Notes: generated from the sequence alone by a model not told the origin. Positions 1,891 to 56,906 are shown, counted from the first letter of the stretch. The stretch is DNA of 64,000 nucleotides from Escherichia phage VerenaGrendelmeier_Bas101 (PQ850631.1); one strand, 5' to 3'. Numbers and translations are program-made.

Positions 1891-2160
1891 CGTATAATGA
1901 CGTATCATCCGTATCAAGTAAGTTGTTGTTTTCAAAAGAATCTTACGGATGATACGCGTTGCCGCCGTACCATATAGGAATTCAAATAAATTAATTTAAA
2001 ATTATATATCTAATTTAATTTTATTTTTTTATAAACTCTTATATATGAAAAGTATCCGTATCATCCGTATCATCCGTAGCACACCAGTGATAGCGCGACT
2101 TATACACCGATACGGATAAAAATACGCCTCATTTTATCCGTATCATCCGTATCACACTAA
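1891..2160. repeat. iteron-like region: at least 8 copies of the 9-10-mer TCATCCGTA(TCA), both orientations, flanking an AT-rich tract (1981-2050)
   Basis: Copies at 1905-1916, 1943-1953 (rc), 2052-2078 (three tandem), 2109-2118 (rc), 2135-2154. Shares blocks with 54327-54615. Confidence 0.7.
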
Positions 2161-6509: not shown

Positions 6510-6892
6510 GGATTCCTGGCGTAAACTTATATCGAGTTGCGACAAAGGTTATCGGTCGCCAACCGATTCAATATTACATGTACAAGGGGCGCACCCTTGA
6601 TAAGATGCGCAACTATGTCACTACATATGAAGAACCAATCACTTTACTTGCTTCGGTGCAGGCTGTACTTCGAAACCAATACGTTGAGCTTGGATTAGAG
6701 CTTCAAAAGAACTATGTCAAAATCTGGGTGGACAAAGACATTGTTGACCTTGACCGCGACGCTTCCGGCGACTATTTTGTGTTTGGTGGCAAAACGTACA
6801 AGATGGAAGATGAAACGACATGGTTTGACCAAGATGGTTGGACGTCTTGCCTTGCCGTGGAAGTAAAACAAAGCTTTCCAGTGTCTACTTGA
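6506..6892 (+). CDS. hypothetical structural protein
   Basis: GTG start overlapping upstream stop (GTGA), suggesting translational coupling. Confidence 0.4.
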   Translation: MRIPGVNLYRVATKVIGRQPIQYYMYKGRTLDKMRNYVTTYEEPITLLASVQAVLRNQYVELGLELQKNYVKIWVDKDIVDLDRDASGDYFVFGGKTYKMEDETTWFDQDGWTSCLAVEVKQSFPVST

Positions 6893-12009: not shown

Positions 12010-12569
12010 TGGACTTCGTTTCGATTCTGCTTTCTGGTCAATCTTTGACCATAACGAATGAGTCAACAGGTCTTCCTGTCTGGACAAGGCTTTCACCTGT
12101 TTCTGCAGAAATAACATCCCCAGCAGAAACAACTCAATTCCCTCTTGCTGGTACAGCCATGCAGGTTGTCGAAGTATCAAGCACGTCATCAGTAAGCAAT
12201 TTACAGGCGGCAAAGGTTGTAATGCCAGCCCATATGGCGTTAAACGTAATTTGCAATGACCAGTCTACAATTGAAAATATCATAAATTCATTTGATGATG
12301 ACGAAGTCACATTTTCAATAACTTCACGAAGCATCATTGCCAGTAAAATGTCGATGTCCGACGTTGAAATAACCCAGTCAGAAGAAAACTTGAATGGAGT
12401 CTCAATAGTAATAACCTTCGAGCAAACGTCATTTAGCATTCAAGGAAGCTTCGACCCTAAACAATCTGCAGACGAATCATCAAATGGTGTTGCTATTAAA
12501 GAACCAGTCAGTTTGACTACAACTGTGAGTTCGTTATATAATAAAATAAAATCAACAGTAGGAATATAA
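12009..12569 (+). CDS. hypothetical tail protein
   Basis: ATG overlapping upstream stop. Confidence 0.4.
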   Translation: MDFVSILLSGQSLTITNESTGLPVWTRLSPVSAEITSPAETTQFPLAGTAMQVVEVSSTSSVSNLQAAKVVMPAHMALNVICNDQSTIENIINSFDDDEVTFSITSRSIIASKMSMSDVEITQSEENLNGVSIVITFEQTSFSIQGSFDPKQSADESSNGVAIKEPVSLTTTVSSLYNKIKSTVGI

Positions 12570-12990: not shown

Positions 12991-15171
12991 GTGTCTGACT
13001 CATTAGAAAAATTTGTGCTTCAATATACGGTGGACTTGAAAGAGTCCATCAATCGTCTTGAGCAATTGCAAGATAAGGTTGATCAGACAAACAAAAAGGC
13101 GAAATCCGCTGGCAAAGATTTCTCTGGAGCATTCAAAGATGTTTTTGGCGAGCTAAAGCCGCTTACTGGTGAGCTAGGGTCAATTGACGGAATACTTGCG
13201 CGGCTGACATATCGTTTTGCCGCGCTCGTTCCTGTTGTCGCAGGATTGGCCGTCGTCGTCAAATCCATCGTTGATGTTCGAAAAGAATACGAAGCGCAAA
13301 GAAAGCTTGGTTTTGAAGCCGGACTCTCTCCAATGGGCGTCGAACAACTACAACGACAGTTGAATGAAAGTTCAGGTGGCATCCTTGGCGCACAGGGGTC
13401 GCGCGATTTAATCAGCAAAGCTTCTAATCTGGCATTCAATGCATACACCAACCCCGATGTGATGAACAAGGACAACTTGTTGTTGAACAAGATGGGGACA
13501 AGTCCTTTCAACAGTAACGGCGGCATCAAAGACACGAATCAGCTGCTTGATGAAATTGGAACAAAGCTGAGAAGTGTGAATGAGCAAACCGCTCGTGCTA
13601 TTGGTGCTCTGGCAGGTTTTACCGCCGATGAAGTCCGCGCCCTTCGCGAGCGCAACCAGTCTGTGAAAGAAAGCACACGCATAAGCGATGAGGAAACGGC
13701 AAAGCTGCAGCGCCAACAAGCTGCTCTTGAGACTATACGAAATAGTATGGGGCAAATTCAAGAAGATTGGCGGCGTATTGAACTGGTTATCGGTGAAAAC
13801 GTTATGCCTGCATTCTCGACGCTTGTCAGCAAGACCGCCGATACAGTCGAAGGATTCCAGATGATGTTCCAAAGAATGTCTGACGGATGGAGCGAATTTG
13901 TCGACAATTTCATCGCTGACTTGAAACACCCGTTTGATAAACAGGCGGCTGTTAACGAGCGTCACGAGCGTGCCGTTGATAGATGGATCACGCAGATGGC
14001 CGAAGGCGATGTGAAACGCCAGAGGAACCAGGAGCAAAACGCTGCTGAACAACGCTCTGCACAGGCTCTTTTTACTCGCGATATCAACCTGTTTTCAAGT
14101 GCCGTTTCAACCTTTGCTGGCGTGATTGATGAGCGTCAAGCTTGGGCGGCATGGGCAGGTGAAATCGGGCGCAGCGCAGGGCAATCCGCGATGCCTGGAA
14201 CACCAGCATTGAATACTGGCGCGACCGTAGGGAATAATCTTGGGTCAGGGAATCCGACAGCATATGACTCAATATATGAGGAAGCTTCAAAACGCTATGG
14301 CATACCTGTAGCGATGATGAAGGCTGTAACTGAAGTCGAATCTGGATTCAATCCAAATGCTGTGAGCGGAGCAGGCGCGACTGGTTTGATGCAAATCATG
14401 CCTTCTAACTTCAAGGGTCTTGGAATAACAGATGGTAATGATCCTCGACAAAACATTATGGGCGGCGCTCAACTTTTGAAAGAGTATCTGAACGCCGCCA
14501 ACGGCGATTGGAATCTTGCGCTGACGATGTATCACGGCGGCTACGACCGAAGCGGCTGGGGCAAGAACACACGCGCGTATCCTGGAAAGGTGATGGCCGC
14601 TCTCGCCCGACAATCCAATGGCGAGTATGCCACGACAGCGCCGCAAGGTGCACCAGTTACTCCAGTACTTAGCGGTAGCGGAGCGGAAGCGCCAAAGGGC
14701 CGTTATGCACCAGTACAAGGTCAATCGCGCCAAACGGTGCAATACAGGCAATTGCAAGAAGCCATTGCAGGATACCTGAACGTACCAGTTGAGCAGTTGA
14801 TGCAGGGACAAGTCAACAAAGGTGATATTGACTTTGCTCAAACTTACCTTAAGCTTGGCACGCAAAGGGATTATATTAAAAACATGCAACTGGCTTCAAC
14901 TCCAGGTGTAAGACCGAACATTCAAGCCGAAGCTATGAAAAACGCTCGTCTTGCTGCATTCCAACTTGAAGCATTCCAGAAATACGGCGGCGACCTTTCC
15001 GCGAATAGTCGACCTGGTGGGCGTGATATTACTATGGGTCAGAAAAACGTTGTCATCAACATCAACGGCGCTCAAGACCCACGCAGCACGGCATTCGAAA
15101 CGAAACGAGTGCTTGAACAAGATGATATCAACGACATAAACAACCTTACTGCTACACCTTTGAAGTGGTGA
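12991..15171 (+). CDS. tape measure protein with C-terminal lytic transglycosylase (SLT) domain
   Basis: 726 aa; coiled-coil N-terminal part, hydrophobic segment, SLT signature EVESGFNPNAVSGAGATGLMQIM...YHGGYD. Confidence 0.7.
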   Translation: MSDSLEKFVLQYTVDLKESINRLEQLQDKVDQTNKKAKSAGKDFSGAFKDVFGELKPLTGELGSIDGILARLTYRFAALVPVVAGLAVVVKSIVDVRKEYEAQRKLGFEAGLSPMGVEQLQRQLNESSGGILGAQGSRDLISKASNLAFNAYTNPDVMNKDNLLLNKMGTSPFNSNGGIKDTNQLLDEIGTKLRSVNEQTARAIGALAGFTADEVRALRERNQSVKESTRISDEETAKLQRQQAALETIRNSMGQIQEDWRRIELVIGENVMPAFSTLVSKTADTVEGFQMMFQRMSDGWSEFVDNFIADLKHPFDKQAAVNERHERAVDRWITQMAEGDVKRQRNQEQNAAEQRSAQALFTRDINLFSSAVSTFAGVIDERQAWAAWAGEIGRSAGQSAMPGTPALNTGATVGNNLGSGNPTAYDSIYEEASKRYGIPVAMMKAVTEVESGFNPNAVSGAGATGLMQIMPSNFKGLGITDGNDPRQNIMGGAQLLKEYLNAANGDWNLALTMYHGGYDRSGWGKNTRAYPGKVMAALARQSNGEYATTAPQGAPVTPVLSGSGAEAPKGRYAPVQGQSRQTVQYRQLQEAIAGYLNVPVEQLMQGQVNKGDIDFAQTYLKLGTQRDYIKNMQLASTPGVRPNIQAEAMKNARLAAFQLEAFQKYGGDLSANSRPGGRDITMGQKNVVININGAQDPRSTAFETKRVLEQDDINDINNLTATPLKW

Positions 15172-15175
15172 TAAT

Positions 15176-16048
15176 TTGAAAAAGAGAATCCTTAAAGTCA
15201 CCTTATCTATGCCGGATGGCACAAGCCAAGTGCTTGATGAAGGATTGATGCTTAGATGCCGAATCAAAAAGGCAGCACTTTCCGTGCAAAATAAGGCCAC
15301 AATCGAAGTCGCAGGATTGACAGGGTACTTAAGAGAGTACCTGCTTTCCAACTTCACCGCATTCAACAAACGTCTGCGTGATCAAGGCCAATTGGCGGCG
15401 AATTATGTCAACGTAACAATTGAAGCTGGATATAGAGAAGGCAACGTTGTTAGTAGCAACTTAGTCTACAAGGGGCAAGTCACAACGGTCGAGATAACAG
15501 CGCCGCCGCCGAACATCGTCATACGCATCACTTGCTACACCAACCAGATAAACAGGACTAAGTTTATCACTCAAGCTGCACCGTCAAACCCAACATTCAA
15601 AGAGTTTGTGGAGTGGTCGGCAAAGCAAATGGATATTGATACTGTTATATGCGATACTTCGATTAACAATCAGCGCCTTGTTAACCCAGGCCGCACAACA
15701 TATGTTGCAGCCGCCTTGTTGCTTGAGATTCAGAACTATCAAAGGAACTCTATTGCGGCATATATCGATGATGATACGCTCATCGTCAAGGATAAAGACA
15801 AAATTCTGAATCCAGAACAGATAACGGTGATTGAGGAATTTGTCGGAATACCGATGTGGAACGAGTGGGGTGCTGACTTCACTTGCATGTATAACGCGGA
15901 TTTGAAGCTTGCCCAAGGTGTGAAATTCAAATCAGTCTTAAACCCAAGCTTGAACGACACCACATTTGTCATCATGCAACTTGAATATGATTTAGCAAGT
16001 CGTGATGATATATTTACGGTGACGGGCGGCGTTGCACCATCGGCCTAA
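15176..16048 (+). CDS. hypothetical tail/baseplate protein
   Basis: TTG start after RBS-like GTGGTG; position after tape measure. Confidence 0.4.
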   Translation: MKKRILKVTLSMPDGTSQVLDEGLMLRCRIKKAALSVQNKATIEVAGLTGYLREYLLSNFTAFNKRLRDQGQLAANYVNVTIEAGYREGNVVSSNLVYKGQVTTVEITAPPPNIVIRITCYTNQINRTKFITQAAPSNPTFKEFVEWSAKQMDIDTVICDTSINNQRLVNPGRTTYVAAALLLEIQNYQRNSIAAYIDDDTLIVKDKDKILNPEQITVIEEFVGIPMWNEWGADFTCMYNADLKLAQGVKFKSVLNPSLNDTTFVIMQLEYDLASRDDIFTVTGGVAPSA

Positions 16049-16050
16049 AT

Positions 16051-16572
16051 ATGAGAAAGAATAAAGTAATTGAGCTGTTTGGAGTTACTTATGAAATACA
16101 TCAATTCAGCGCAATAGACGCGTTTGAAATGGTTGATGCGATAAGCATATTAACTCCACTTGAATTATTAAGTGAATGTCATGTTATTAAATATGACGGA
16201 ACTAAAGTCAGATTAAACTCTGAGAAGGCCATCAGTGAAGAAGTGAAAAGTGTGCCAAATCACTTGCCGCCCAACCTTGTATTGAAAGTTCTAATGGAAG
16301 CGGTAAAGAAGCACAATTTTGGATTCCTCAGTGATTGGAAAGGCACTAAGATTCCAAATAGATTCTTGGCTGACGTCCCGACCGTAGAGCCTAATTATCT
16401 TGAGCCGATGGTTGCAAGCCTAATAAACAATGGTCTTGCTTCGTTAAAAGAATTGGAAGAATATTATTCATTGCGTGATGCATTCGCTATGTTTGATGGA
16501 CTAATAGCAAAATCACTTAATGAAGCCTACTCAAACGAAGCTGCCATTAAAGAATCAAAGTCAAATCGCTAA
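16051..16572 (+). CDS. hypothetical baseplate protein
   Basis: ATG start. Confidence 0.4.
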   Translation: MRKNKVIELFGVTYEIHQFSAIDAFEMVDAISILTPLELLSECHVIKYDGTKVRLNSEKAISEEVKSVPNHLPPNLVLKVLMEAVKKHNFGFLSDWKGTKIPNRFLADVPTVEPNYLEPMVASLINNGLASLKELEEYYSLRDAFAMFDGLIAKSLNEAYSNEAAIKESKSNR

Positions 16573-16582
16573 AATATTGCTT

Positions 16583-16631
16583 ATAGACTCCTTATAGATT
16601 ATAATTTGTTGATCAGATATAAGGAGTCTAT
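16583..16631 (+). repeat. perfect 14-bp inverted repeat (ATAGACTCCTTATA / TATAAGGAGTCTAT) enclosing the RBS of the spike gene
   Basis: Arms at 16583-16596 and 16618-16631, 21-nt loop; right arm contains AAGGAG and abuts the start codon. Confidence 0.6.
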
Positions 16632-16632
16632 G

Positions 16633-17358
16633 ATGGCAGAGAAGTTAACTCAACTTACAAGCCCCAACCAAACTGACAAATCAAGTATGTTTGCCGCGCT
16701 GCAGGGAATGCTGGATCGTGGCAAGTATACCACTGACGGCATGATTCCTGCACAAGTAATATCTTATGACCGCAAACAGAATTTAGCAGTCATAAAGCCT
16801 GTTATTCATTTCGTAAGTCTTGATGATAAACCAGTGGAGCGTCAACCTCTGGTGTCAATTCCTGTATTGGCAATCGGCGGCGGCGGCTTTGTAATCAACT
16901 TTCCTTTGAAAGAAGGTGATTTGGGCTGGATATTCGCTGGCGACCGCGAGTTGTCGACATTCCTTGAAGAATTGAAGCCGACCGCGCCTACCAATGGTCG
17001 CGTGAAAACTTTCGCTGATGGACTGTTCATACCGGATGTATTCCGAAAATACACCATAAGCGGAGAGGATGCAGGCTCAATGGTAATTCAGTCACTCAGC
17101 GGCGCTGTACGAATTGCATTAAGTGATGACTCGATAAACATAACCGCATCAGCTGGGGTAAACGTGAAAACACCAATCACCACTATCGACCAACAACTGA
17201 TAGTGAATGGAAAGGCAACATTCAATGGTGGTATAGAAGGGAAAGAAGGAACGACGGCAACGCTTCCGACTGGCACCACAATCGGCGGCACAAATGTATC
17301 CACTCACGGGCACATAGGTAACGGACCTGGAAACAGAACTGGGGACATGATAGAATGA
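16633..17358 (+). CDS. baseplate central spike protein (gpV / Mu gp45-like)
   Basis: OB-fold-like region PVLAIGGGGFVINFPLKEGDLGWIFAGD; C-terminal GTNVSTHGHIGNGPGNRTG. Start chosen at ATG with AAGGAG spacing. Confidence 0.55.
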   Translation: MAEKLTQLTSPNQTDKSSMFAALQGMLDRGKYTTDGMIPAQVISYDRKQNLAVIKPVIHFVSLDDKPVERQPLVSIPVLAIGGGGFVINFPLKEGDLGWIFAGDRELSTFLEELKPTAPTNGRVKTFADGLFIPDVFRKYTISGEDAGSMVIQSLSGAVRIALSDDSINITASAGVNVKTPITTIDQQLIVNGKATFNGGIEGKEGTTATLPTGTTIGGTNVSTHGHIGNGPGNRTGDMIE

Positions 17359-18626
17359 GTGCACAATATTCTTACATAGTAAGCACTGGTGTAATAACCA
17401 TCGACACAGCCGATTTGCTGGCTGACGTTCAGAATGAATGGATTGAGTCATTAGGGGTCGGGCTTGACGTTGATGCATCGACACCGCAAGGCACCCTAAT
17501 CGCGACAGAGACTTTGGCAAGAACTTCAGTCATGAAGAACAACGCCGAGCTGGGAAGTCTCATCAACCCTAATTATTCATATGGCGTATACCTTGATGCC
17601 ATCGCGGCACTGCTTGGTATTGAGCGAACGAAAAACATCAGCACGATGTTGAAAGGAATTACCGCAGAAGGAACGCCGCTGTTGGAAATTCCTGCTGGAA
17701 GTTTGCTGACGGATTCAAACGGCACATACTGGTATGTTCTTGAAGACGTTCAAATCACTTCGACTGGCAAGACAAGCAACATGACTCTTGCATCAAAAGA
17801 TTATGGCTCATTTACGGTTGCCCCTGATGAAGAGTTTACAGTGGTGCAAGGTTATGACGTCATCGGATGGTCAAGAACGTATTCAACATCAGCAACGACG
17901 ACTGTGCCAGGAACGCAATACATGGGCGACGGAGCGTTAAAGGCCGCTCGCGTTAAGCGTCTTTACCAGCAGGGCATTGCATCGCTTGGTGCCATTCGCG
18001 CTCGCGCCATGTCGGTCGACGGCGTGGAATCTGTGATGGTCGTGGAGAACGACACGGGATTGCCTGGAACGGTACGCGGCATCACCTTTTCAACGCCTAA
18101 CGGTGTTTGGGTGTGCGCAAGCGGAACTTTCGATAAGCAAGTTTTTGCTGAGACTATTTTCAAAGCGAAAATGGGCGGCCAGCCGTGGGACTTTGGTGCT
18201 GCCAACCAGGGCAATCCAGTCAACTCTCCTGATGGAATAGAAGTTGTCGACGAAGAATCACAACTGTCTTATTTCGTGAAGTTCAACACTGCAGTAATAT
18301 ATGACTTGTATGTCGATATTACTGTTTCAAGAGGCACCGCAACCGCCGATGCGGAATCTATTATTGCCGCTGTGTTGAATTACGGCAATGGCAATTTTAA
18401 CGGTGAGCAAGGGTATACAGTAGGTCAATCTCAATCTTCTTTTGAAATTGCTTCAGCAGTGTCTTGCGAGTATCCAGGCTTGTATATTAAAGATTGCAAA
18501 ATTGCAGCAGTTAAAAGCGGACAGGCAGCGCCAAATTATCCATCCGATTACGGCAGCGAGTGGATTGCCAATCCTTGGGATAAGGCGAATACTATGCGCG
18601 GCTTCATCAACGTTAAATTTGTGTGA
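17355..18626 (+). CDS. baseplate J-like protein
   Basis: 423 aa, position after spike; ATGA overlap with upstream gene. Confidence 0.55.
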   Translation: MSAQYSYIVSTGVITIDTADLLADVQNEWIESLGVGLDVDASTPQGTLIATETLARTSVMKNNAELGSLINPNYSYGVYLDAIAALLGIERTKNISTMLKGITAEGTPLLEIPAGSLLTDSNGTYWYVLEDVQITSTGKTSNMTLASKDYGSFTVAPDEEFTVVQGYDVIGWSRTYSTSATTTVPGTQYMGDGALKAARVKRLYQQGIASLGAIRARAMSVDGVESVMVVENDTGLPGTVRGITFSTPNGVWVCASGTFDKQVFAETIFKAKMGGQPWDFGAANQGNPVNSPDGIEVVDEESQLSYFVKFNTAVIYDLYVDITVSRGTATADAESIIAAVLNYGNGNFNGEQGYTVGQSQSSFEIASAVSCEYPGLYIKDCKIAAVKSGQAAPNYPSDYGSEWIANPWDKANTMRGFINVKFV

Positions 18627-18632
18627 GGAACT

Positions 18633-21371
18633 ATGCAAAAGTTTGACACAAACCTGTTGCAAAACCTTAAGTGGATGCAGAACAATGCACCAAACATTAC
18701 ATCTTTGGTGCAAAAGAAAAGTGACTGGTATGAAAGATACCAAGATCAGTTTTGGACTGACTGGTACAATAACATTTTTAACATTGACACTTGTGATGCA
18801 ATGGGCATTTATATTTGGTGCGACATTCTTTGCATACCAAGAGACTTTGTGGACTTAAGCAATTATGAGCACAACTGGGCGTTTGGACCGACGCGCGACA
18901 ACTTTGAAGGTGCGGACAACATCGGCGGCAACTTCTTTGGTGCTGGCGGGAAGGTTGTAAAGAATATCGAAGAAGCGCGCATACTTCTTAAGCTTCGTTA
19001 TCTGACGCTTACAAGTGATGGCCGCATCGAAAGTATCAACCGCATGCTTAAGTGGATTTTTAACCGTGGAGAGGCTTGGGATTACTCTTCATCACGCTAC
19101 GCATATGTGACCGACAATACTCAAGGTGCGGTGTCTTCATCTGAATCAACAAATGGCTCATTCCTTCTGTACGACTGGCAAGGGTCAACTGAGATTCAGC
19201 ATGATTATAAGCAGATACTTTTAAGCCATGGCAACAACGCCGGGCTGACCATCAGCGGAGTGTCAGGCGCCGTGTCACGGATGGCGCACCCAGATTGGTA
19301 CTCATGGGGGAATGGCTCCGGCACAGGTCTTGTCGGCGGCGACACCAGACAGTATGGCGGCCCTGATTACTATGGACAGTTGTGTGGTGATTACCCAGGC
19401 GAGGCCATAGAGAATTTTGCCAACGCAGTAAGGGTAGTCAAGACTGCTTCAAGCGGTGAGCCTGTGTATTCTTTGGCAAATAATCCAAGCGCCCAATCCA
19501 TTGCGCTTCCTTCGCAGGCTGGCGTTAACGTTTGTTATAGCTTCTACATAAAGGTGCTTTCTGAAAATGTCGCTTCTGTTTCGGTTACAGAGAATAGTGA
19601 TGCATCGAGTAATGGAAAGCTGTTTGACCCCGTCACTGGCCAGTTCAACTTGGACCCGTCATTGAGCTATTTCATCAAAGGCAAATTCGATGGAGTAAGA
19701 AGGGAATCAAACCGTGGTGGCATAAAAGCAATTGGCGGCGATTGGTATCGAATCTGGATTGTAGAGCAGACGGCAACCGCTGCTTCTGGAGTAAGTACCA
19801 GCTTTTCAATAGAGTTGAAGGCGACTGCCGCTGGATCAACTCAAACTCGTGAATTGCCTGAAGGGTCTGATGCTCTTTTGTTTGGATACTCGATTTGCGT
19901 CTGCGACCCTGTTCAGAATCCAAATGGACCTGAGCCTTATTTTTATGGAACGCAAAACCCTCCTTCTGACGGAACAGCAATCCTGTCTGTAACGGCGGGA
20001 ACACTCAATAACATCTCCTGTGCAAACGGACCGCTGACGACAAGAAACGGTGTAGTTGGCGAGTCATTCATGCAACCTGGCTCATCACTTGCATACTCTG
20101 GCTCAATCGGCGGCTACCCGTACCCAGGGAACGCCACGCTGATTGCAGAGACTGATGGAATCAGACGCTCATGGAACGTTAGCAGGCTGGATGGAGTACC
20201 GCCGCCGCCGACCGCCGACTATTACATGGAATACGTCATCGGACCTTATTTCGCCAACAACCTGTCTGACAACTTTAAGACGCTAGTTGGTGACAGGAAT
20301 GAAGGATTCTTGCCAGCAAATGCCGGAATACGCTGGCAGCTTTACCAAGAAGTCGCAGACTTATCTGATATTGATTTGACTGTCAGCGACATAACAGACA
20401 CGCGCGTAGGATTTGAAACGGAAGGTGTTGCGTGGATTAACACTGACGGTATCATCAGAGTTGGCGGCATCAACGAGTGGCCGCTGAACAACTTCAACGG
20501 TGTGATACGCCAGCTTGAATCTTTGAAAGGTGTAAACCAGGTCGTCGACGGCGCGCTTGTCAACGACTATTCAATCTCAAAAGCATCAAGAGATGACTTT
20601 GGTCGTGAAATACCACGCGCGGCAATCACTAACTATTGGCGCTACACACAGCCAAATGACGGTACATCTTTTGGCAATATCATTGAGGATGGCGCAAACA
20701 CTGTCACAGCGATGCCAATCAGCGGTGTGCCCAACCAGTTCCCATCATTCAAGCTTTCCGCTACAATAGGGACTGTGCCAACGTCCGGTTATGCACGCGC
20801 TGTACTTGCTACTAAATACACTGGCACCCTGACTGGCCCTTTGTCATTTATCGCAATAGTCAAAAACAACACGGTTAACGGTCAAAAACTTTTTGTAACT
20901 GTACCGGATGGGATGGGCGGCTATATCCCTAAATTCTACAACATAGGCGCAGGTGATTTGCAACGTATCGAAATTGACCTTGCCGCTGAGATTGTTGAAG
21001 GCGCTACCTGGGATGGATCAACAGGCGGCATCAGCATCGGTTTGATATCAGGGAAAGACTTGCCGACCGAAGTTGGTACTACTCTTGAACTTGATATTTT
21101 AAGCTTGATGCTTGTGTCTGGTAGTACGATGAATGCGCTTGCAATTTCAACAAGCGAAGATTTCGCAAAGAAAACTGCGACTTCTATATACATCAAAAAC
21201 CCAGGATCACTTGCCACTGGAGTTCAATTGATTGCTTCTAATGGTGATGTTGTAGCAACAGTAAACTTTCCGAGAAGTGCTGCTGGTGGTTATGTTTCAA
21301 GCATGAACATAACTGACTTAACTGGTGATTGGGCATCGACCCTTTTATCAAAAATTAAATACATCGTGTAG
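18633..21371 (+). CDS. large baseplate wedge / tail fiber-associated protein
   Basis: 912 aa, GAGGA RBS, position between baseplate J and fiber. Confidence 0.45.
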   Translation: MQKFDTNLLQNLKWMQNNAPNITSLVQKKSDWYERYQDQFWTDWYNNIFNIDTCDAMGIYIWCDILCIPRDFVDLSNYEHNWAFGPTRDNFEGADNIGGNFFGAGGKVVKNIEEARILLKLRYLTLTSDGRIESINRMLKWIFNRGEAWDYSSSRYAYVTDNTQGAVSSSESTNGSFLLYDWQGSTEIQHDYKQILLSHGNNAGLTISGVSGAVSRMAHPDWYSWGNGSGTGLVGGDTRQYGGPDYYGQLCGDYPGEAIENFANAVRVVKTASSGEPVYSLANNPSAQSIALPSQAGVNVCYSFYIKVLSENVASVSVTENSDASSNGKLFDPVTGQFNLDPSLSYFIKGKFDGVRRESNRGGIKAIGGDWYRIWIVEQTATAASGVSTSFSIELKATAAGSTQTRELPEGSDALLFGYSICVCDPVQNPNGPEPYFYGTQNPPSDGTAILSVTAGTLNNISCANGPLTTRNGVVGESFMQPGSSLAYSGSIGGYPYPGNATLIAETDGIRRSWNVSRLDGVPPPPTADYYMEYVIGPYFANNLSDNFKTLVGDRNEGFLPANAGIRWQLYQEVADLSDIDLTVSDITDTRVGFETEGVAWINTDGIIRVGGINEWPLNNFNGVIRQLESLKGVNQVVDGALVNDYSISKASRDDFGREIPRAAITNYWRYTQPNDGTSFGNIIEDGANTVTAMPISGVPNQFPSFKLSATIGTVPTSGYARAVLATKYTGTLTGPLSFIAIVKNNTVNGQKLFVTVPDGMGGYIPKFYNIGAGDLQRIEIDLAAEIVEGATWDGSTGGISIGLISGKDLPTEVGTTLELDILSLMLVSGSTMNALAISTSEDFAKKTATSIYIKNPGSLATGVQLIASNGDVVATVNFPRSAAGGYVSSMNITDLTGDWASTLLSKIKYIV

Positions 21372-23823: not shown

Positions 23824-23854
23824 AAAAAGGCCCATATGGGCCTTTGTTTATTTT
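23824..23854. terminator. bidirectional rho-independent terminator
   Basis: Palindrome GGCCCATATGGGCC flanked by A-tract upstream and T-tract downstream, between convergent genes. Confidence 0.7.
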
Positions 23855-27853: not shown

Positions 27854-28411
27854 TTACTTTTTGCTTTTAGGCAAGGTTATTTTAGCTTCTTTGTATTCAA
27901 AAACGCTAATATCTTCACTAACTGGATTGCCCGCTTCCAGCTGTTCTTTTACAAACGACTTCAGTGTAGCAGAATGAACGCCTTGTTTCAACGTGGCTTC
28001 AACACCATCTTCACGCAGTGCGGCAACAATCTCTTGCGCCTGTTCGATTTCTTCGCGACCGAACTCAGCCGTGACGCTGGACTTGATCAAGCCGCCGTAA
28101 CCGTTGTTGACAAGCCAATCGAAAACTTTTAATTCGTTTTCTTTCTTGATTGAAGCATTCACCTTGGACTCGACTTTGATTTTGGTCTTGTCCTCAAGCT
28201 TGATTTCAGACACACCAAGCTCATCCATTACGCCAGGAAGCAGAACAGTTTTGATTTCACTGATGCGCTGCTTTTGCATATCAGCTTCATCTTCAAGCTC
28301 TGTCAAAGCTTCTTGGCGTTCTGCCAGTTCAGATACTAAGCGCGCAAGGCGCTCTTGAATGCTCTCAGGAGCGACCTGCGGCAAATCATCTTCCCAATTA
28401 ATATTGCTCAT
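27854..28411 (-). CDS. hypothetical protein with N-terminal coiled coil
   Basis: 185 aa, acidic, coiled-coil N-terminus. Confidence 0.4.
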   Translation of the reverse strand: MSNINWEDDLPQVAPESIQERLARLVSELAERQEALTELEDEADMQKQRISEIKTVLLPGVMDELGVSEIKLEDKTKIKVESKVNASIKKENELKVFDWLVNNGYGGLIKSSVTAEFGREEIEQAQEIVAALREDGVEATLKQGVHSATLKSFVKEQLEAGNPVSEDISVFEYKEAKITLPKSKK

Positions 28412-28671
28412 ATTTTACCTTCTTGCATTAGCCCTTCAACACGGGTCATTTGATAACGTTCAGGTTTCCAAGCCGCCAAAGCCTTCTCAGCGCCTTTTAA
28501 GGTTTTATATGCCTTGATGCCAGGCATAATAACGGTATTCACCCCAGCACCGTTGCCATAATCAAACTCTTTAACAACGCGGAACATTCCGTCAATTTCT
28601 TTGACCAAAAGACGTTTGAAAGCGATTGCGCCAGTAGCTTCATTTTTGTAACGTTCAAGGATGCGTACCAT
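28408..28671 (-). CDS. hypothetical protein
   Basis: 87 aa ORF, overlapping stop/start with neighbour. Confidence 0.4.
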   Translation of the reverse strand: MVRILERYKNEATGAIAFKRLLVKEIDGMFRVVKEFDYGNGAGVNTVIMPGIKAYKTLKGAEKALAAWKPERYQMTRVEGLMQEGKI

Positions 28672-28747
28672 TTTGTATTCCTCTGTTTCGTTTCTATGAA
28701 TTAATTATGACTCATCTTCCGTGACAAGTCAAATTATTTTTTTGATA

Positions 28748-30271
28748 TTAATTCATCTTTTTGCCGTCGAGGATGTGATCAGCAAGCATAGACTTCATAC
28801 TTAGTGATCGCTGAATTTCTTCGTCGATGGTATCAACACCAATAAAATCAACATACAACACGCTTGATTTGGTGCCGATGCGGTGATTTCGGTCTTCGGA
28901 TTGCTTGCGCAGCTCGTTGTCATAGTTGCAAGAATAATAGATTGCCAAGTCGGCAGCGGTAAGCGTGATTCCGATGCCTGCCGCTGCAGCGTGGCAAACC
29001 AACACCTGTGTTCCACCATTCGCGACTGTGTTCTTCTGGAAGTCATCAATTAAGAACTCGCGCTGCTCTTTGGACGTTTCACCGTTGTATACACCAGTGA
29101 CCACGCCTTCAGACCCAAGCCAGTCCTTAATCTGGTTCATCTCTTCCTTAAAGATGGCCCAAACGATGAATTTGCGCTCTGGGTCGTCTTCCAGCACCCC
29201 TTCCACATAGTCCTTAAAGGCCGTGAATCGTGGGTTGTCTTCCATGTAGACCATCTCATCATACACCTTAACAAAGCCTGATGTCACCTGCTTCATCTTA
29301 GTGCGAGATGCGATCATCTCAAACTTAACGTTTTCTTCTTCGCCTTTGTACTCCATCAGATAGTTGTACTCATTCTTGAGTTCATCGTATACATCGCGCT
29401 GCTTAGGAGACAACTCGAAGTCGATAAACTTGTACACCTTCTCTGGAAGGTCCGGCAAGTATTCCGCTTTTGTCGCACGGAAATAGTGCGGCTCCATCAG
29501 CCGGATAAGCTTGTCAAGGTTTTTATACATCGGTCGGCCAAACTGGTCTTTGCGCGGCACTTGCGGAATGCCATAACCGTTGCCGCCGATTTTCTTGAGA
29601 ATGGCCTGCATCTCTGGGTCGTGCGCTTCAAGCAGCACTGTGAATTCAGAGTTGAATGCACGGAACGATTTGGTGCCGAGCAAGCCAGCTTCAAGGAAGT
29701 GATACTGCATGTAAATATCAGCAGGCGAGCGCGGCAGCGGCGTGCCGGAAAGTATGCGACGGGCCTTTGCCAGCCGTCCCAATTCTACAACCTTGATGGA
29801 GCGTTTGGCTGTGTTATTTTTGATACGCGTCGATTCGTCAATGATCATCAAACAGCGGTACTTCTTCAGGACAGACTCGATGTGTTGATAACCGACTGGT
29901 GTGTTGACAGTATCGATGTTGAATGAGAAGATGCGCGCAGGCACTTCACCTTCAGGATAGTGATCAGCAAACATCTTCTCCCAAATGGCTTTACCCTTTT
30001 TAGTTTTCATCTTGTCATTTCCGCGCCAGTAATGACCAATCCATTTAATGGAAAGGTGTTCTGGTGCTTCACGACGAATCCAGTTCGAGTGGACACCGTT
30101 AGGAGCGATGACAACCATGGCATCAAATGCGCCAGCGGCGAAGTGTTTTTCAAACTCTGCCAAAGCAGTCCAGGTTTTACCAAGACCCTGTTCCATAAAA
30201 TAAGCAAAGTATTTTCTGCGGCCTGCTTTATCAAGCGCCAATAATTGGTGGCGCATCCCTTGTGTTTTCAT
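28748..30271 (-). CDS. SNF2-family helicase
   Basis: Walker A QGLGKT, DExx-like IIDESTRIKN, LSGTPLP, motif VI EDRNHRIG. Confidence 0.7.
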   Translation of the reverse strand: MKTQGMRHQLLALDKAGRRKYFAYFMEQGLGKTWTALAEFEKHFAAGAFDAMVVIAPNGVHSNWIRREAPEHLSIKWIGHYWRGNDKMKTKKGKAIWEKMFADHYPEGEVPARIFSFNIDTVNTPVGYQHIESVLKKYRCLMIIDESTRIKNNTAKRSIKVVELGRLAKARRILSGTPLPRSPADIYMQYHFLEAGLLGTKSFRAFNSEFTVLLEAHDPEMQAILKKIGGNGYGIPQVPRKDQFGRPMYKNLDKLIRLMEPHYFRATKAEYLPDLPEKVYKFIDFELSPKQRDVYDELKNEYNYLMEYKGEEENVKFEMIASRTKMKQVTSGFVKVYDEMVYMEDNPRFTAFKDYVEGVLEDDPERKFIVWAIFKEEMNQIKDWLGSEGVVTGVYNGETSKEQREFLIDDFQKNTVANGGTQVLVCHAAAAGIGITLTAADLAIYYSCNYDNELRKQSEDRNHRIGTKSSVLYVDFIGVDTIDEEIQRSLSMKSMLADHILDGKKMN

Positions 30272-30690
30272 GACAATTCCTCTAAATACTTGATGATGTG
30301 ATGAATAGTTCCCTTCACGATTATCTCACGTTGAACGTCTGCAATATTATAACGCTTTAATTCAATAGAAGGGTGGACTAAATAAAACATCTTCTCAGAA
30401 TCAACCTTAAGCAGAACAAATGATGGGTATTTCCAATCATTCCACGAAGAAAGAAAGCTGCATTGGCCTTTCTCAAATGCATTTCTGAAAGGTGCAGTGG
30501 TGGCCCTTGCAGGCCACGATTCAAAGAACTTCATTTCAAGCCAAAAGCCGCGCCCTTTCCGGTTTGTGCCGATTACGTCCGGCACGCCATCACCAGTCAT
30601 CGACTCGATTCTTTGAAGCTTCAATACCGATTCTGAATGCTTCTTCAAAGGCACGAATATGTATTTCTGCTCACGGTTATTTGTTGCCAT
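30268..30690 (-). CDS. VRR-NUC domain nuclease
   Basis: GVPDVIG...GFWLEMKF matches the PD-(D/E)xK VRR-NUC pattern. Confidence 0.6.
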   Translation of the reverse strand: MATNNREQKYIFVPLKKHSESVLKLQRIESMTGDGVPDVIGTNRKGRGFWLEMKFFESWPARATTAPFRNAFEKGQCSFLSSWNDWKYPSFVLLKVDSEKMFYLVHPSIELKRYNIADVQREIIVKGTIHHIIKYLEELS

Positions 30691-34818: not shown

Positions 34819-35502
34819 TTATTTACCGAATGGAATATCAGTACCAGACATAAAGCGCCATGCGCCCGTAATTAAGATATGGCGAATGAAGTCAGCAATT
34901 ACTTGCGGCTCAGTCTCCAATCCGTTCATCAATGCCTTTTTCTGGTATTCAGCAGCATACTCAGGAGTCCAGCCGCGAGTCGCGCAAACAGCATCTTCAA
35001 TCTGTTTGGACATGCCAGTACCACGTAGCTTGTTAGGACTAATAGAAAATACCGTGATCCCGTATTTAGGCGTAAGCTCGTGAGCCATCTGCTTGCTAAT
35101 CATAAGCGCAGCGGCCTTGGAAGCATTATAACACAAGCTGGACGTCATAGGAATATGCGCAGCGTTGGAAACGATATTGATCACAAAACCTTTGTTGTCG
35201 ATAAGACTTTTCAGCGCGGCTTGAGTCGTGTTGACGAAAGAGAAGGCGTTGGTGTGCATAACGCGATTGAACTCTTCGTAGTTAACATCTTCAAACCAGT
35301 TGTTGGAGTTGACGCCAGCACAGTTGATCAAGCCTTCTACATCATATGGGCTTAAAATTTCTTTCATCTGTTTCGCGTCGCGGACGTCATATCCGTATGC
35401 TGAATCGATTCCAAGCACGTTATGACCGTAAGCGCCAAGGGTGTCAAAAATAGATTTACCAAGACCGGAATTGGAACCTGTTACAACAATTACTTTTTTC
35501 AT
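34819..35502 (-). CDS. short-chain dehydrogenase/reductase (SDR)
   Basis: Cofactor motif VTGSNSGLGKS and catalytic YNASK. Confidence 0.7.
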   Translation of the reverse strand: MKKVIVVTGSNSGLGKSIFDTLGAYGHNVLGIDSAYGYDVRDAKQMKEILSPYDVEGLINCAGVNSNNWFEDVNYEEFNRVMHTNAFSFVNTTQAALKSLIDNKGFVINIVSNAAHIPMTSSLCYNASKAAALMISKQMAHELTPKYGITVFSISPNKLRGTGMSKQIEDAVCATRGWTPEYAAEYQKKALMNGLETEPQVIADFIRHILITGAWRFMSGTDIPFGK

Positions 35503-35567
35503 TTATTTATCCTTTTTGGACTTCATTTCGATGAGATAAATATAACTCATCGAAACGCACAAGTAAA

Positions 35568-37253: not shown

Positions 37254-37700
37254 TTAACGGTAATTCACTAGTTGCTGATCACCAGAGAAGGTGCAATGAT
37301 AAACGAATTGTGCGTTATAAAGCAACTGAAAACTTTTCTTTGGTTCATTATTAGAACTCATTGATGTAAAGATTTCTGCACCAGAACGGTTTTCACCAAT
37401 CAGGTTAATAAAGCCGCCAGTTGAACGAGGCTGAACGAAAGTGAAACGCTGCATCCACGGAGTCCGGTTGGCACCTTTTCCGGTGAATCCCTGAATCTGA
37501 ATATTCAGACCTTCTTGCTCGTTCACACCGATGTAAGTGGTAATTGTTGCGCCAGTCGTCGCTGCGGTCTTGCCGTCCATCGCTTCGCAATCGTAAACAG
37601 CGATTGAATCGGAAGTACGGACAGCGGCTTCAGTCGCTTCCATATACATGGTTCCGAGAATAGCAGTCGCGGCAAGCGCGATTCCAGTGATGCGTTTCAT
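37254..37700 (-). CDS. secreted protein with signal peptide, unknown function
   Basis: MKRITGIALAATAILGTMYMEATEAA signal-like N-terminus; two Cys. Confidence 0.5.
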   Translation of the reverse strand: MKRITGIALAATAILGTMYMEATEAAVRTSDSIAVYDCEAMDGKTAATTGATITTYIGVNEQEGLNIQIQGFTGKGANRTPWMQRFTFVQPRSTGGFINLIGENRSGAEIFTSMSSNNEPKKSFQLLYNAQFVYHCTFSGDQQLVNYR

Positions 37701-37720
37701 TTTCGTTTCCTCTATGAGTT

Positions 37721-37757
37721 CTGCTTCAATGATTAAAGTATACGCCCATTGAAGCAG
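37721..37757. promoter_or_regulatory. 11-bp-stem hairpin in intergenic region
   Basis: CTGCTTCAATG ... CATTGAAGCAG, 15-nt loop, directly upstream of the RBS of the 37254-37700 gene on the minus strand. Confidence 0.5.
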
Positions 37758-37765
37758 AAAGCAAA

Positions 37766-56451: not shown

Positions 56452-56766
56452 TTACTCTTCGTCGTCTTCGATTAATTCGAGGGCGAAGGCGTAAGCTTTG
56501 CTATCGTAATTAACTAAAACGGCGAGTTCGAACTCGTTAATAAACGCCGTTTTACCGCATAAATTTAATTCCGCATCGACTTCGAAGAATCCGTTTTCGT
56601 CGCGCTCTAAGCGAGAAGCAGCGAGTTGCTCGATTACCGTCGCGTCGTTAATTTCTTCGCCTAAGCGAACGCCGGAGAATTTCGCGAGAATTTCGCCGTA
56701 AGTAAGCGTAACGCCCTGGACTTCGGCGGTTGCGTTTTCGAGGGTAAAGCGGGTAACGATAGCCAT
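56452..56766 (-). CDS. small acidic protein (104 aa)
   Basis: Strongly acidic, ends ...LIEDDEE. Confidence 0.45.
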   Translation of the reverse strand: MAIVTRFTLENATAEVQGVTLTYGEILAKFSGVRLGEEINDATVIEQLAASRLERDENGFFEVDAELNLCGKTAFINEFELAVLVNYDSKAYAFALELIEDDEE

Positions 56767-56906
56767 AATAAACTCCTAGTTGGGAGAGGCGTTAACGACC
56801 TATTCGTTAACTCATCCCGTCCCGATATGAGTACATTATAATATAGTGTAGAAAAAAGTAAAGCACTTTTTCGATAAAAATGCGATAAATTATTTTATCT
56901 TTTTTC

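What the first reader, a model, noticed from the sequence alone, without database searches (positions are those of the whole stretch)
16583..16631. Perfect 14-bp inverted repeat that buries the ribosome-binding site of the baseplate spike gene
ATAGACTCCTTATA and TATAAGGAGTCTAT are exact reverse complements separated by 21 nt. The right arm contains the AAGGAG Shine-Dalgarno and ends at the start codon, so the stem would sequester the RBS. This could set spike stoichiometry by translational repression, or be an operator for a dimeric regulator.
Basis: seen in the sequence. Interest (0 to 1): 0.45.

Follow-up and report, generated by a model that had tools for sequence, protein, structure and literature searches.

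The report
Promoter nested in spike-gene RBS hairpin
The inverted repeat is real and hides the ribosome-binding site of a phage baseplate-spike gene, but a bacterial-type promoter sits between its two arms, so probably only long read-through messages are silenced while messages started at that promoter are translated, a device known from phage T4 and here conserved across a large family of E. coli, Pantoea, Serratia and Pseudomonas phages.

Summary
The 14-bp perfect inverted repeat (16583-16596 / 16618-16631) exists as described. It is the longest in the window (0.01 expected by chance) and is almost invariant in the Wifcevirus genus. The right arm holds the SD AAGGAG, and the helix extends to the A of the start codon (16633). 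The left arm lies in the promoter spacer, so transcripts from this promoter lack it and have an open RBS (-6.9 kcal/mol). Read-through transcripts fold into a -30 kcal/mol RBS-occluding hairpin. In the orthologous spacer of Pseudomonas phage 14-1, a published, in-vivo-validated sigma70 promoter (P018, TSS 28318) starts between the two arms. Across about 17 divergent lineages the -10 box is conserved (11 TATAAT against 0.25-0.65 expected). The arms differ in sequence but still pair with the RBS, with compensatory changes between Kyle and PA1, sense-only G.U pairs, and leaderless variants in two lineages. Closest known: T4 genes e, soc, 49 and I-TevI. The operator reading is disfavoured. All evidence is computational or from the ortholog. 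I rate it a new member of a known kind, of moderate interest.

The parts
12513..12542 (+). Upstream sigma70-like promoter (TTGACT-18-TATAAT), the likely source of transcripts that read through into the spike leader
   Evidence: 11 of 12 consensus matches. No + strand terminator-like site lies between it and 16600. Its position corresponds to 14-1 P016/P017, upstream of the lytic tail protein operon. Read-through itself is inferred.
16051..16572 (+). Upstream gene (173 aa, phrog_4774, function unknown), stop codon TAA at 16570-16572
   Evidence: Homologs precede the spike gene in the syntenic relatives.
16577..16582 (+). -35-like hexamer TTGCTT
   Evidence: It lies 17 nt upstream of a perfect TATAAT. 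TTGCTT, TTGCCT and TTTACT recur as -35-like hexamers at other intergenic promoter-like sites in the window.
16583..16596 (+). Left (5') arm, an anti-SD sequence (contains CTCCTT) lying inside the promoter's 17-nt spacer
   Evidence: It is invariant in 11 Wifcevirus genomes although promoter spacers are normally unconstrained.
16597..16617 (+). Loop (21 nt) holding the -10 box and the predicted transcription start
   Evidence: The only variable site in the genus, G16611A in AV128, lies here.
16600..16605 (+). -10 box TATAAT (perfect consensus)
   Evidence: A -10 box occupies the equivalent place in nearly all syntenic relatives: 11 TATAAT observed against 0.25-0.65 expected in 759 nt of spacers.
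16611..16613 (+). Predicted transcription start (6-8 nt after the -10), downstream of the left arm and upstream of the right arm
   Evidence: Inferred from promoter geometry. In the orthologous 14-1 spacer the mapped TSS (28318) lies 8 nt after the -10 and between the arms.
16618..16631 (+). Right (3') arm containing the Shine-Dalgarno sequence
16621..16626 (+). Shine-Dalgarno AAGGAG, 6 nt before ATG 16633
   Evidence: Mansfield annotates the RBS at the equivalent place.
16581..16633 (+). Full predicted helix in read-through RNA: 16 outer pairs (including U16582.G16632 and U16581-A16633) plus a 5-bp inner helix
   Evidence: -30.0 kcal/mol, z = -5.0. The RNA starting at 16612 folds at -6.9 kcal/mol, z = +0.5.
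16633..17358 (+). Baseplate central spike gene (241 aa); its stop overlaps the start of the wedge gene (17355) by 4 nt

Best explanation
The 60-nt spacer before the spike gene holds a host-RNA-polymerase (sigma70-type) promoter nested inside an RBS-occluding RNA hairpin. The 5' arm is an anti-Shine-Dalgarno sequence in the promoter's -35/-10 spacer. The -10 box and the transcription start lie in the loop. The 3' arm is the Shine-Dalgarno region up to the start codon. Two kinds of spike mRNA therefore exist. Long transcripts arriving from the upstream tail operon (promoter at about 12.5 kb) carry both arms and fold so that the SD and the first base of the AUG are paired, so they should be poorly translated for spike. 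Transcripts started at the internal promoter (about 16611-16613) lack the 5' arm, have an open RBS and should be translated. Spike synthesis, and probably that of the overlapping wedge gene, would thus depend on the internal promoter and be uncoupled from read-through of the upstream operon. This geometry matches T4 genes e, soc, 49 and I-TevI. Shown here: the repeat, its statistics, its conservation, the promoter consensus, the in-silico folds and the comparative pattern. Shown by others in an ortholog: the TSS and promoter activity in phage 14-1. Inferred: promoter activity in this phage, read-through, differential translation, and the biological purpose (timing or stoichiometry of the spike).
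For: (1) The repeat is real and non-random. The long RNA folds at -30.0 kcal/mol (z -5.0) and the RNA from 16612 at -6.9 kcal/mol (z +0.5). (2) TTGCTT-17-TATAAT fits the window's own promoter style. (3) In the orthologous spacer of Pseudomonas phage 14-1 (same gene order, spike 43% identical), promoter P018 is classed sigma70. Its TSS at 28318 was mapped by ONT-cappable-seq, it was active in reporter assays in E. coli and P. aeruginosa, and it drives TU018 = gp42 (spike) + gp43 (wedge). The TSS falls between left arm TGGGAAGGCT and right arm GGCTTTCCCA. (4) Across syntenic relatives the spacer sequence is not conserved but a -10 box is: 11 TATAAT in 759 nt against 0.25-0.65 expected, mostly 22-32 nt before the start. 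(5) Shuffling only the segment 5' of the predicted TSS shows specific complementarity to the RBS: p <= 0.05 in 8 of the 12 loci tested, and Fisher combined p = 4e-7 over 11 lineages. The arms are unrelated in sequence (window 14 bp; Kyle 13 bp; PA1 10 bp; L006 12 bp; L098 13 bp; MTx 10 bp). (6) Kyle and PA1, which are position-homologous, give 5 of 14 pairs changed on both sides, against 0-1 in slid registers. (7) Sense RNA is more stable than antisense in 15 of 19 lineages (p = 0.008), and G.U pairs occur in L098, L034, 14-1, TropicalSun and PCSE1. (8) Within the genus the spacer has 1 of 60 variable sites against 29-42% at flanking third codon positions. (9) No + strand terminator-like site lies between 12542 and 16600, and no TTS was mapped in the 14-1 structural region. 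(10) Other short-leader promoter-proximal starts in the window show no occlusion. (11) In L022 and L108 the TATAAT ends 6 nt before the ATG, so the promoter transcript would be leaderless and no clear SD is present. This is a different route to the same outcome. (12) The T4 precedent is documented in PMC3014915.
Against: There are no RNA or protein data for any Wifcevirus, so promoter activity, read-through and differential translation are all inferred. The -35 matches only 3 of 6 positions, and the tool's stricter scan did not list this promoter. By the mean-pairing metric the window itself reaches only p = 0.05-0.065. Four lineages (L017, L018, L035, L104) have the -10 box but no convincing occluding stem, and WTB lacks a clear -10. 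Unlike T4, both transcript classes would come from sigma70-type promoters inside a structural module, so the benefit of silencing the read-through class is unclear. Two other perfect repeats in the window also bracket a -10 box without covering the RBS, so an additional or different role for '-10 in a hairpin loop' cannot be excluded.
Confidence: 0.6

Rival explanations
1. Constitutive translational brake: every spike mRNA carries the hairpin, which lowers initiation to set the low copy number of the spike, and the TATAAT in the loop is not a functional promoter.
For: The hairpin is strong and covers the SD. The spike is a low-copy virion component (general knowledge of contractile tails). The -35 is weak, 3 of 6.
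Against: The -10 box is the most conserved feature of the spacer across divergent lineages: 11 observed against 0.25-0.65 expected. The ortholog in 14-1 has a mapped TSS between the arms and promoter activity in E. coli. Leaderless variants exist.
Confidence: 0.1
2. RNA processing or stability element: the hairpin in polycistronic RNA is an RNase III (or other nuclease) site, or a 3' stabiliser for the upstream message, and RBS pairing is secondary.
For: In the window the composite helix is about 21 bp (16 + 5 with a 3-nt bulge), close to RNase III substrate size (own knowledge). Two other -10-bracketing hairpins in the window do not cover an RBS yet fold strongly in read-through RNA, which would fit a general intercistronic RNA role.
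Against: In relatives the stems are only 7-14 bp, and what is conserved is pairing with the SD/start region rather than helix length. A 21-nt loop is a poor design for a stabiliser. No Rfam family matches.
Confidence: 0.12
3. DNA operator: a dimeric phage or host regulator binds the palindrome overlapping the -10 and switches the internal promoter.
For: The repeat brackets the -10, a typical repressor position. Three promoter-like sites in the window have such perfect repeats, against 0.03 expected. All three are invariant in the genus.
Against: The three repeats are unrelated in sequence, arm length (14, 13, 10 bp) and spacing (21, 15, 10 nt). The arm motif does not recur elsewhere. Relatives keep pairing but not sequence, with compensatory changes. 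G.U pairs and the sense-over-antisense stability difference point to RNA. The arm position relative to the -10 shifts between lineages while the right arm stays on the RBS.
Confidence: 0.07
4. Translational coupling device: ribosomes finishing the upstream 173-aa gene melt the hairpin, so spike translation on the polycistronic RNA is tied to upstream translation.
For: The hairpin lies just after the upstream stop codon. In L006/L007 the left arm begins only about 7 nt after the stop.
Against: In the window the left arm starts 10 nt after the stop. From the spacer sequences it starts about 13-28 nt after the stop in Kyle, PA1, 14-1, L098, L136, L005 and MTx. That is at or beyond the reach of a terminating ribosome (own knowledge of ribosome footprints), so at most the first base pairs would be opened. 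This idea also does not explain the conserved -10 box.
Confidence: 0.05
5. Transcription terminator or insulator ending the upstream operon just before the internal promoter.
For: A strong hairpin at an operon junction next to a promoter.
Against: No U-tract follows the stem (the sequence is GATGGCAGAG), and the terminator scan found nothing in 15500-17500. The stem is AT-rich. No TTS was mapped in the homologous region of 14-1.
Confidence: 0.03

Closest known systems
Phage T4 gene e (lysozyme) leader: an RBS-sequestering hairpin with late promoters inside it (also T4 soc, gene 49 and I-TevI)
   Same: The SD and/or AUG are paired in transcripts initiated upstream. A promoter lies in the DNA encoding the 5' strand or loop, so its transcripts lack the 5' strand and are translated (PMC3014915). 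The window shows the same geometry: left arm upstream of the predicted +1, right arm on the SD.
   Different: In T4 the internal promoter is a gp55-dependent late promoter (TATAAATA) and the silenced transcripts are early or middle ones, so the logic is temporal. Here the internal promoter is sigma70-type, the ortholog is active in uninfected cells, and the element sits inside a structural operon before a baseplate spike gene. What distinguishes the two transcript classes biologically is unknown. There is no sequence homology to the T4 elements.
Pseudomonas phage 14-1 promoter P018 / transcription unit TU018 (Putzeys et al. 2024, PMC10914365; supplement of bioRxiv 10.1101/2023.10.13.562163)
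   Same: It occupies the orthologous position: between the phrog_4774 homolog gp41 and the spike gp42. It is sigma70-type with a -10 of TATACT and a mapped TSS 19 nt before the spike ATG. Arms flanking the -10/TSS pair with the SD/start region.
   Different: The spacer sequence is unrelated and the stem is shorter (10 bp with 2 G.U pairs, z = -1.55). I found no mention of leader structure or RBS occlusion at P018 in the paper's main text.
Leaderless-mRNA promoters (start codon at +1)
   Same: In relatives L022 and L108 the TATAAT ends 6 nt before the ATG. Only the promoter-initiated RNA would be efficiently translated, which is the same outcome as the hairpin gate.
   Different: The window's leader is about 21 nt with a strong SD, so it is not leaderless.

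Membership tests
T4 e/soc/49/I-TevI-type promoter-within-hairpin translational gate | SD and/or start codon sequestered in an RNA helix in upstream-initiated transcripts | tested here: met
   In silico only: -30.0 kcal/mol, z -5.0, with AAGGAG and A16633 paired. Recurrent in relatives.
T4 e/soc/49/I-TevI-type promoter-within-hairpin translational gate | A promoter positioned so that its transcripts lack the 5' strand of the helix (sequence level and ortholog) | tested here: met
   TTGCTT-17-TATAAT with the left arm in the spacer. The -10 is conserved family-wide. The ortholog TSS is mapped between the arms in 14-1.
T4 e/soc/49/I-TevI-type promoter-within-hairpin translational gate | Experimentally mapped TSS inside the hairpin in this phage | not testable with these tools
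   No transcriptome data for any Wifcevirus were found.
T4 e/soc/49/I-TevI-type promoter-within-hairpin translational gate | Upstream transcription reads through the element | tested here: inconclusive
   There is no terminator-like site on the + strand between 12542 and 16600, and no TTS in the 14-1 structural region, but no direct read evidence.
T4 e/soc/49/I-TevI-type promoter-within-hairpin translational gate | Long transcripts poorly translated, short ones well translated | not testable with these tools
   Needs toeprinting, reporters or ribosome profiling.
T4 e/soc/49/I-TevI-type promoter-within-hairpin translational gate | Internal promoter belongs to a later temporal class than the read-through transcripts (T4 late promoter TATAAATA) | tested here: not met
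   The promoter is sigma70-type. The ortholog P018 is active in uninfected E. coli and P. aeruginosa. No TATAAATA is present. I treat this as specific to T4 rather than defining of the mechanism, but it is the main difference.
Sigma70-dependent promoter | -10 hexamer, 16-18 nt spacer and -35 hexamer | tested here: met
   -10 6 of 6, spacer 17, -35 3 of 6 (TTG). The stricter tool scan, which needs 4 of 6 in each hexamer, did not list it.
Sigma70-dependent promoter | Promoter activity or TSS | not testable with these tools
   Shown only for the 14-1 ortholog.
Operator for a dimeric DNA-binding regulator | Half-site sequence conserved among relatives, and/or a recurring motif in the genome | tested here: not met
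   The arms differ in every lineage while pairing persists. There is no other good copy in the window.
Operator for a dimeric DNA-binding regulator | Symmetry at the duplex-DNA level (no strand bias) | tested here: not met
   Sense-only G.U pairs, and sense more stable than antisense in 15 of 19 lineages, p = 0.008.
Intrinsic (Rho-independent) terminator | GC-rich stem followed by a U-tract | tested here: not met
   The stem is AT-rich and is followed by GATGGCAGAG. The scan found none in 15500-17500.
RNase III processing site | Helix of roughly two turns (about 20 bp or more; own knowledge) | tested here: inconclusive
   The window's composite helix is about 21 bp with a bulge. Relatives have only 7-14 bp, so length is not the conserved property.
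Any Rfam family | Covariance-model match | tested here: not met
   No match up to E = 1 in 16300-16900.

The most novel reading that the evidence does not exclude
Perfect inverted repeats bracketing a sigma70 -10 box form a distinct, selected class of element in these phages, with three in this genome against 0.03 expected. Because the 5' arm always lies upstream of the +1, they mark RNA by its origin (read-through or locally initiated). At the spike gene this restricts translation to internal-promoter transcripts and could act as an assembly-order or stoichiometry checkpoint for the baseplate. At the other two sites the same geometry would serve a different, still unknown purpose, such as processing, insulation from transcriptional interference, or promoter control through DNA structure.
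Probability: 0.15. Interest if true: 0.7.

Novelty: new member of a known kind. Interest (0 to 1): 0.5.

Why it matters
If confirmed, a regulatory device until now documented mainly in T4 (translation allowed only from transcripts that start inside an RBS-hiding hairpin) would be shown to be conserved in a large, unrelated family. That family is the PB1-like / Wifcevirus / Kylevirus / Myosmarvirus myophages, which include hundreds of isolates used or proposed for therapy and biocontrol. It would mean that expression of the central spike, and probably the overlapping wedge gene, depends on a small internal promoter rather than on the long tail operon. This matters for rebuilding or refactoring these genomes; a Wifcevirus, vB_Eco4M-7, has already been assembled synthetically according to the abstract of PMC11074155. 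It also gives a testable handle on how baseplate protein amounts or timing are set. The family-wide pattern, with the same architecture reached through unrelated arm sequences and in two lineages through a leaderless start, is a clear case of selection on a function rather than on a sequence.

Tried and rejected
(1) Rfam search of 16300-16900 at E <= 1 found nothing. (2) The tool's promoter scan did not list the spike promoter because the -35 has only 3 of 6 matches. I used my own PWM scan, built from classical sigma70 frequencies from memory, so those scores are only indicative. (3) A family-wide formal covariation analysis was not possible, because the arms are not position-homologous between lineages: the left arm sits in the spacer, on the -10, or in the discriminator. 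I used a shuffle-the-5'-segment test instead. Formal pair counting was restricted to the alignable trio window/Kyle/PA1, where the window is 2 nt out of register. Three sequences give little statistical weight. (4) The mean-pairing metric gives only p = 0.05-0.065 for the window itself, because AT-rich shuffled 5' segments also pair loosely with the AU-rich leader. The perfect-stem statistic is the better measure there. (5) The PMC copy of the 14-1 paper has no supplement held, so the bioRxiv supplement was used. (6) The promoters annotated in the Xanthomonas phage XcP1 record near this locus are on the opposite strand and are pattern-based, so I did not use them. (7) Terminator, translational coupling and operator readings were considered and set aside, as listed under the rivals. 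(8) The TTG at 16606 listed as the ORF start lies in the loop and was rejected as the start in favour of ATG 16633. (9) One literature search failed on a term that was too short. (10) No protein-database, structure or representative searches were needed.

Full report
OBSERVATION. The window is a Wifcevirus-type E. coli myophage: 28 phage records match 15000-19000 at 90-98% identity. The reported repeat is present exactly as described, with arms 16583-16596 (ATAGACTCCTTATA) and 16618-16631 (TATAAGGAGTCTAT), 14 bp, 100% complementary, 21 nt apart. It is the longest perfect inverted repeat with a loop of 60 nt or less in the 64-kb window. Dinucleotide-preserving shuffles give 0.01 such repeats of >=14 bp per window. 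It lies in the 60-nt gap between a 173-aa gene of unknown function (16051-16572, phrog_4774) and a 241-aa gene (16633-17358). That gene matches Pfam PF18352 (name masked in the output; Gp138_N spike domain from memory) and is annotated 'baseplate spike' in Bas98-100. An E217 gp41-type hub gene lies upstream and a Baseplate_J wedge gene downstream. The likely start is the second of two adjacent ATGs (16633): the SD AAGGAG (16621-16626) is 6 nt away, relatives begin M-A, and the Bas99 annotation agrees. As RNA the region folds at -30.0 kcal/mol (z = -5.0). The helix extends by U.G and U-A pairs to 16581/16633, so the SD and the first base of the start codon are paired.

The loop contains a perfect TATAAT (16600-16605). 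[quoted passage not shown] The left arm therefore sits in the spacer of a sigma70-type promoter, and the right arm lies downstream of the predicted start at about 16611-16613. The same promoter style, with TTGCTT, TTGCCT or TTTACT spaced 16-18 nt from TATAAT or TATACT, recurs at other intergenic sites in the window. An RNA starting at 16612 has no significant structure (-6.9 kcal/mol, z = +0.5), and its RBS is open.

COMPARATIVE EVIDENCE. Loci encoding relatives of the spike were collected from viral and metagenomic contigs and from named phages. In lineages that keep the order '173-aa homolog then spike' with a gap of 30-70 nt, the spacer sequence is not conserved but a -10 box is. TATAAT occurs 11 times in 759 nt of spacers, against 0.25 expected from locus density or 0.65 from base composition. 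In most lineages it is spaced 17 nt from a T-rich -35-like hexamer and ends 22-32 nt before the start codon.

Many lineages also pair the segment upstream of the predicted start with the SD/start region, using unrelated sequences:
- Pantoea phage Kyle: ACCTCTTACAGTA / TACTGTAAGAGGT, 13 bp perfect, with TTTACT-17-TATAAT.
- Pantoea phage PA1: ACTGCCTTAC / GTAAGGCAGT.
- L006/7: TCTCTCCCGGTG / CACCGGGAGAGA.
- L034: TTATATCCGGTG / CATCGGATATAA, with one G.U pair.
- L098: CGATTTTTCCTTA / TAAGGGGAAATCG, with two G.U pairs.
- Serratia MTx and Erwinia TropicalSun: the -10 itself is the left arm (TTATAATATC / GATATTATAA).
- P. syringae phage tabernarius (L136): CTTGGCGC / GCGCCAAG.
- L005/8: GGCGATA / TATCGCC.

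Shuffling only the segment 5' of the predicted TSS shows that the native segment pairs the RBS more than expected. This holds at p <= 0.05 in 8 of the 12 loci tested (seven at p <= 0.013), and Fisher's combined p over 11 lineages is 4e-7. Kyle and PA1 can be aligned position by position. In their register 5 of 14 pairs changed on both sides and 81% of cells are paired, against 0-1 compensatory pairs and 30-50% paired in slid registers. With three sequences this is only indicative. The sense RNA is more stable than the antisense in 15 of 19 lineages (Wilcoxon p = 0.008). In Salmonella phage PCSE1 a mutated right arm re-pairs with an upstream CTCCTTTATT through G.U pairs (-22.7 sense against -11.4 antisense). 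In L022 and L108 the TATAAT ends 6 nt before the ATG and no clear SD is present, so the promoter transcript would be leaderless. That is another way of restricting translation to locally initiated RNA (inference). Within the Wifcevirus genus (11 genomes) the spacer has 1 of 60 variable sites, G16611A in the loop, while flanking third codon positions vary at 29-42%.

EXPERIMENTAL ANCHOR IN AN ORTHOLOG. Pseudomonas phage 14-1 (Pbunavirus) has the same gene order, and its spacer reads TTCCTAACCGGGCCTGGGAAGGCTATACTAGACCTGCCAAATCAGAGGCTTTCCC-ATG. Putzeys et al. 2024 list promoter 14-1 P018 with a TSS at 28318 (+) and class sigma70. It drives TU018 (28318-30402, gp42 + gp43) and is marked as validated in their work (supplement of bioRxiv 10.1101/2023.10.13.562163). 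[quoted passage not shown] The TSS lies 8 nt after the -10, which is where I predicted it before seeing the table. It falls between left arm TGGGAAGGCT and right arm GGCTTTCCCA, which abuts the ATG. The numbered TTSs in that study jump from T004 at 6661 to T005 at 35525, so no terminator was mapped in the structural region, which is consistent with read-through from P016/P017. I found no discussion of leader structure at P018 in the paper's main text, and no other description of the feature in the searchable literature.

READ-THROUGH IN THE WINDOW. A strong promoter-like site (TTGACT-18-TATAAT, 12513-12542) precedes the operon that runs through the lytic tail/tape-measure gene, the hub gene and the 173-aa gene. 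No + strand terminator-like site lies between it and the spacer. The first convincing + strand terminator is at 23826-23845, at the end of the module. Read-through is therefore expected but not shown.

MECHANISM PROPOSED. There are two classes of spike mRNA. Read-through RNA carries both arms and has its RBS occluded. RNA from the internal promoter lacks the 5' arm and is translatable. [quoted passage not shown] The differences from T4 are that the internal promoter is sigma70-type rather than a gp55 late promoter, and that the element sits inside a structural operon. The purpose is unknown: it could uncouple spike and wedge synthesis from the upstream tail genes, or set timing or stoichiometry. 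The spike stop overlaps the wedge start by 4 nt, so the gate may also affect the wedge gene (inference).

RIVALS.
- Operator: disfavoured. Relatives conserve pairing rather than sequence, G.U pairs are sense-specific, the motif does not recur, and the arm position relative to the -10 shifts between lineages.
- Terminator: no U-tract and no scan hit.
- Translational coupling: the left arm begins 10 nt after the stop here and farther in most relatives.
- RNase III or stability element: cannot be excluded for this genus, because the composite helix is about 21 bp, but helix length is not what relatives conserve.
- Constitutive brake without a promoter: contradicted by conservation of the -10 and by the 14-1 TSS.

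AN UNRESOLVED COMPLICATION. Two other perfect repeats in the window also bracket a sigma70-like -10 box, both on the - strand between co-directional early-module genes. They are at 37719-37731/37747-37759 (13 bp) and 35526-35535/35546-35555 (10 bp). In all, 3 of 23 promoter-like sites have such a repeat of >=10 bp, against 0.03 expected. Both are invariant in the genus, and both fold strongly in read-through RNA only (-19.7 kcal/mol, z -2.8; -23.0 kcal/mol, z -5.2). Their right arms end 18 and 23 nt before the ATG and do not hide the SD. Among the promoter-proximal starts tested, the spike site is the only short-leader one where the upstream segment occludes the RBS. So '-10 in a hairpin loop' may be a broader device in these phages, of which the spike case is the translational version. 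I could not establish what the other two do.

VERDICT. The best explanation (confidence about 0.6) is a T4-e-like promoter-within-hairpin gate on the baseplate spike gene, conserved by architecture across a large phage family and anchored by a mapped TSS in an ortholog. I rate it a new member of a known kind, with interest of about 0.5.

Noticed in passing
window 37719-37759 (- strand; gap before the gene starting at 37700): A perfect 13-bp inverted repeat (TTCTGCTTCAATG / CATTGAAGCAGAA) brackets the -10 of a TTGCTT-16-TATACT promoter-like site. The left arm is in the promoter spacer and the right arm ends 18 nt before the ATG, so the SD (GAGGAA) is not covered. It is invariant in 6 Wifcevirus genomes. 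Read-through RNA folds at -19.7 kcal/mol (z -2.8), while the RNA from the -10 onward has no significant structure.
   Followed up: partly
window 35526-35555 (- strand; gap before the FabG-like gene starting at 35502): A perfect 10-bp inverted repeat (TTTCGATGAG / CTCATCGAAA) brackets the -10 of TTTACT-17-TATATT. The right arm ends 23 nt before the ATG. Read-through RNA folds at -23.0 kcal/mol (z -5.2). The arms are invariant in the genus. The equivalent MTx promoter has only a small hairpin inside its spacer. Together with the spike site, 3 of 23 promoter-like sites have a -10-bracketing repeat of >=10 bp, against 0.03 expected.
   Followed up: partly
window 1901-2154 (406-nt gap upstream of the gene at 2264): A cluster of five direct copies of CGTATCATCCGTATCA (1901, 2057, 2066, 2130, 2139), plus an inverted copy at 1944-1956 and a 13-bp inverted repeat at 2109-2121/2132-2144. 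It lies just upstream of a strong promoter-like site, TTGCCT-17-TATAAT (2212-2240). It looks like an array of protein-binding sites (regulatory or packaging-related); function unknown.
   Followed up: no
window 23826-23845: A GC-rich palindromic hairpin AAAGGCCCATATGGGCCTTT followed by a T-run, at the junction between the + strand structural module and the - strand genes. It is a likely terminator closing the late operon, possibly bidirectional.
   Followed up: no
window 56766-56862 (- strand): The promoter-like site TTTACT-16-TATAAT has an unusually long 62-nt leader before the ATG at 56766. The upstream segment raises RBS pairing in the shuffle test (p = 0.01). The leader contains CTCAT...ATGAG and a repeated GTTAAC.
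   Followed up: no
L022 930-966 and L108 2356-2392 (metagenomic relatives): TATAAT ends only 6 nt before the spike ATG and no clear SD is present, which implies a leaderless spike mRNA in these lineages.
   Followed up: partly
L185 (Serratia phage MTx) 345-436 and 2906-2975: Other promoter-like sites in a related genus also carry small inverted repeats inside or overlapping the -35/-10 spacer: TTGACG-ATGGCGCTATTAAGCGC-CATAAT, and TTGACT-GCAGGCCAAGGATGGCC-GATAAT.
   Followed up: no
window, genome-wide (e.g. 2212, 41510, 48789, 54779, 57305, 63585): Intergenic promoter-like sites share a house style (-35 TTGCCT, TTGCTT or TTTACT, with -10 TATAAT or TATACT), which suggests that this phage relies on host sigma70 RNA polymerase throughout, as reported for 14-1.
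   Followed up: partly
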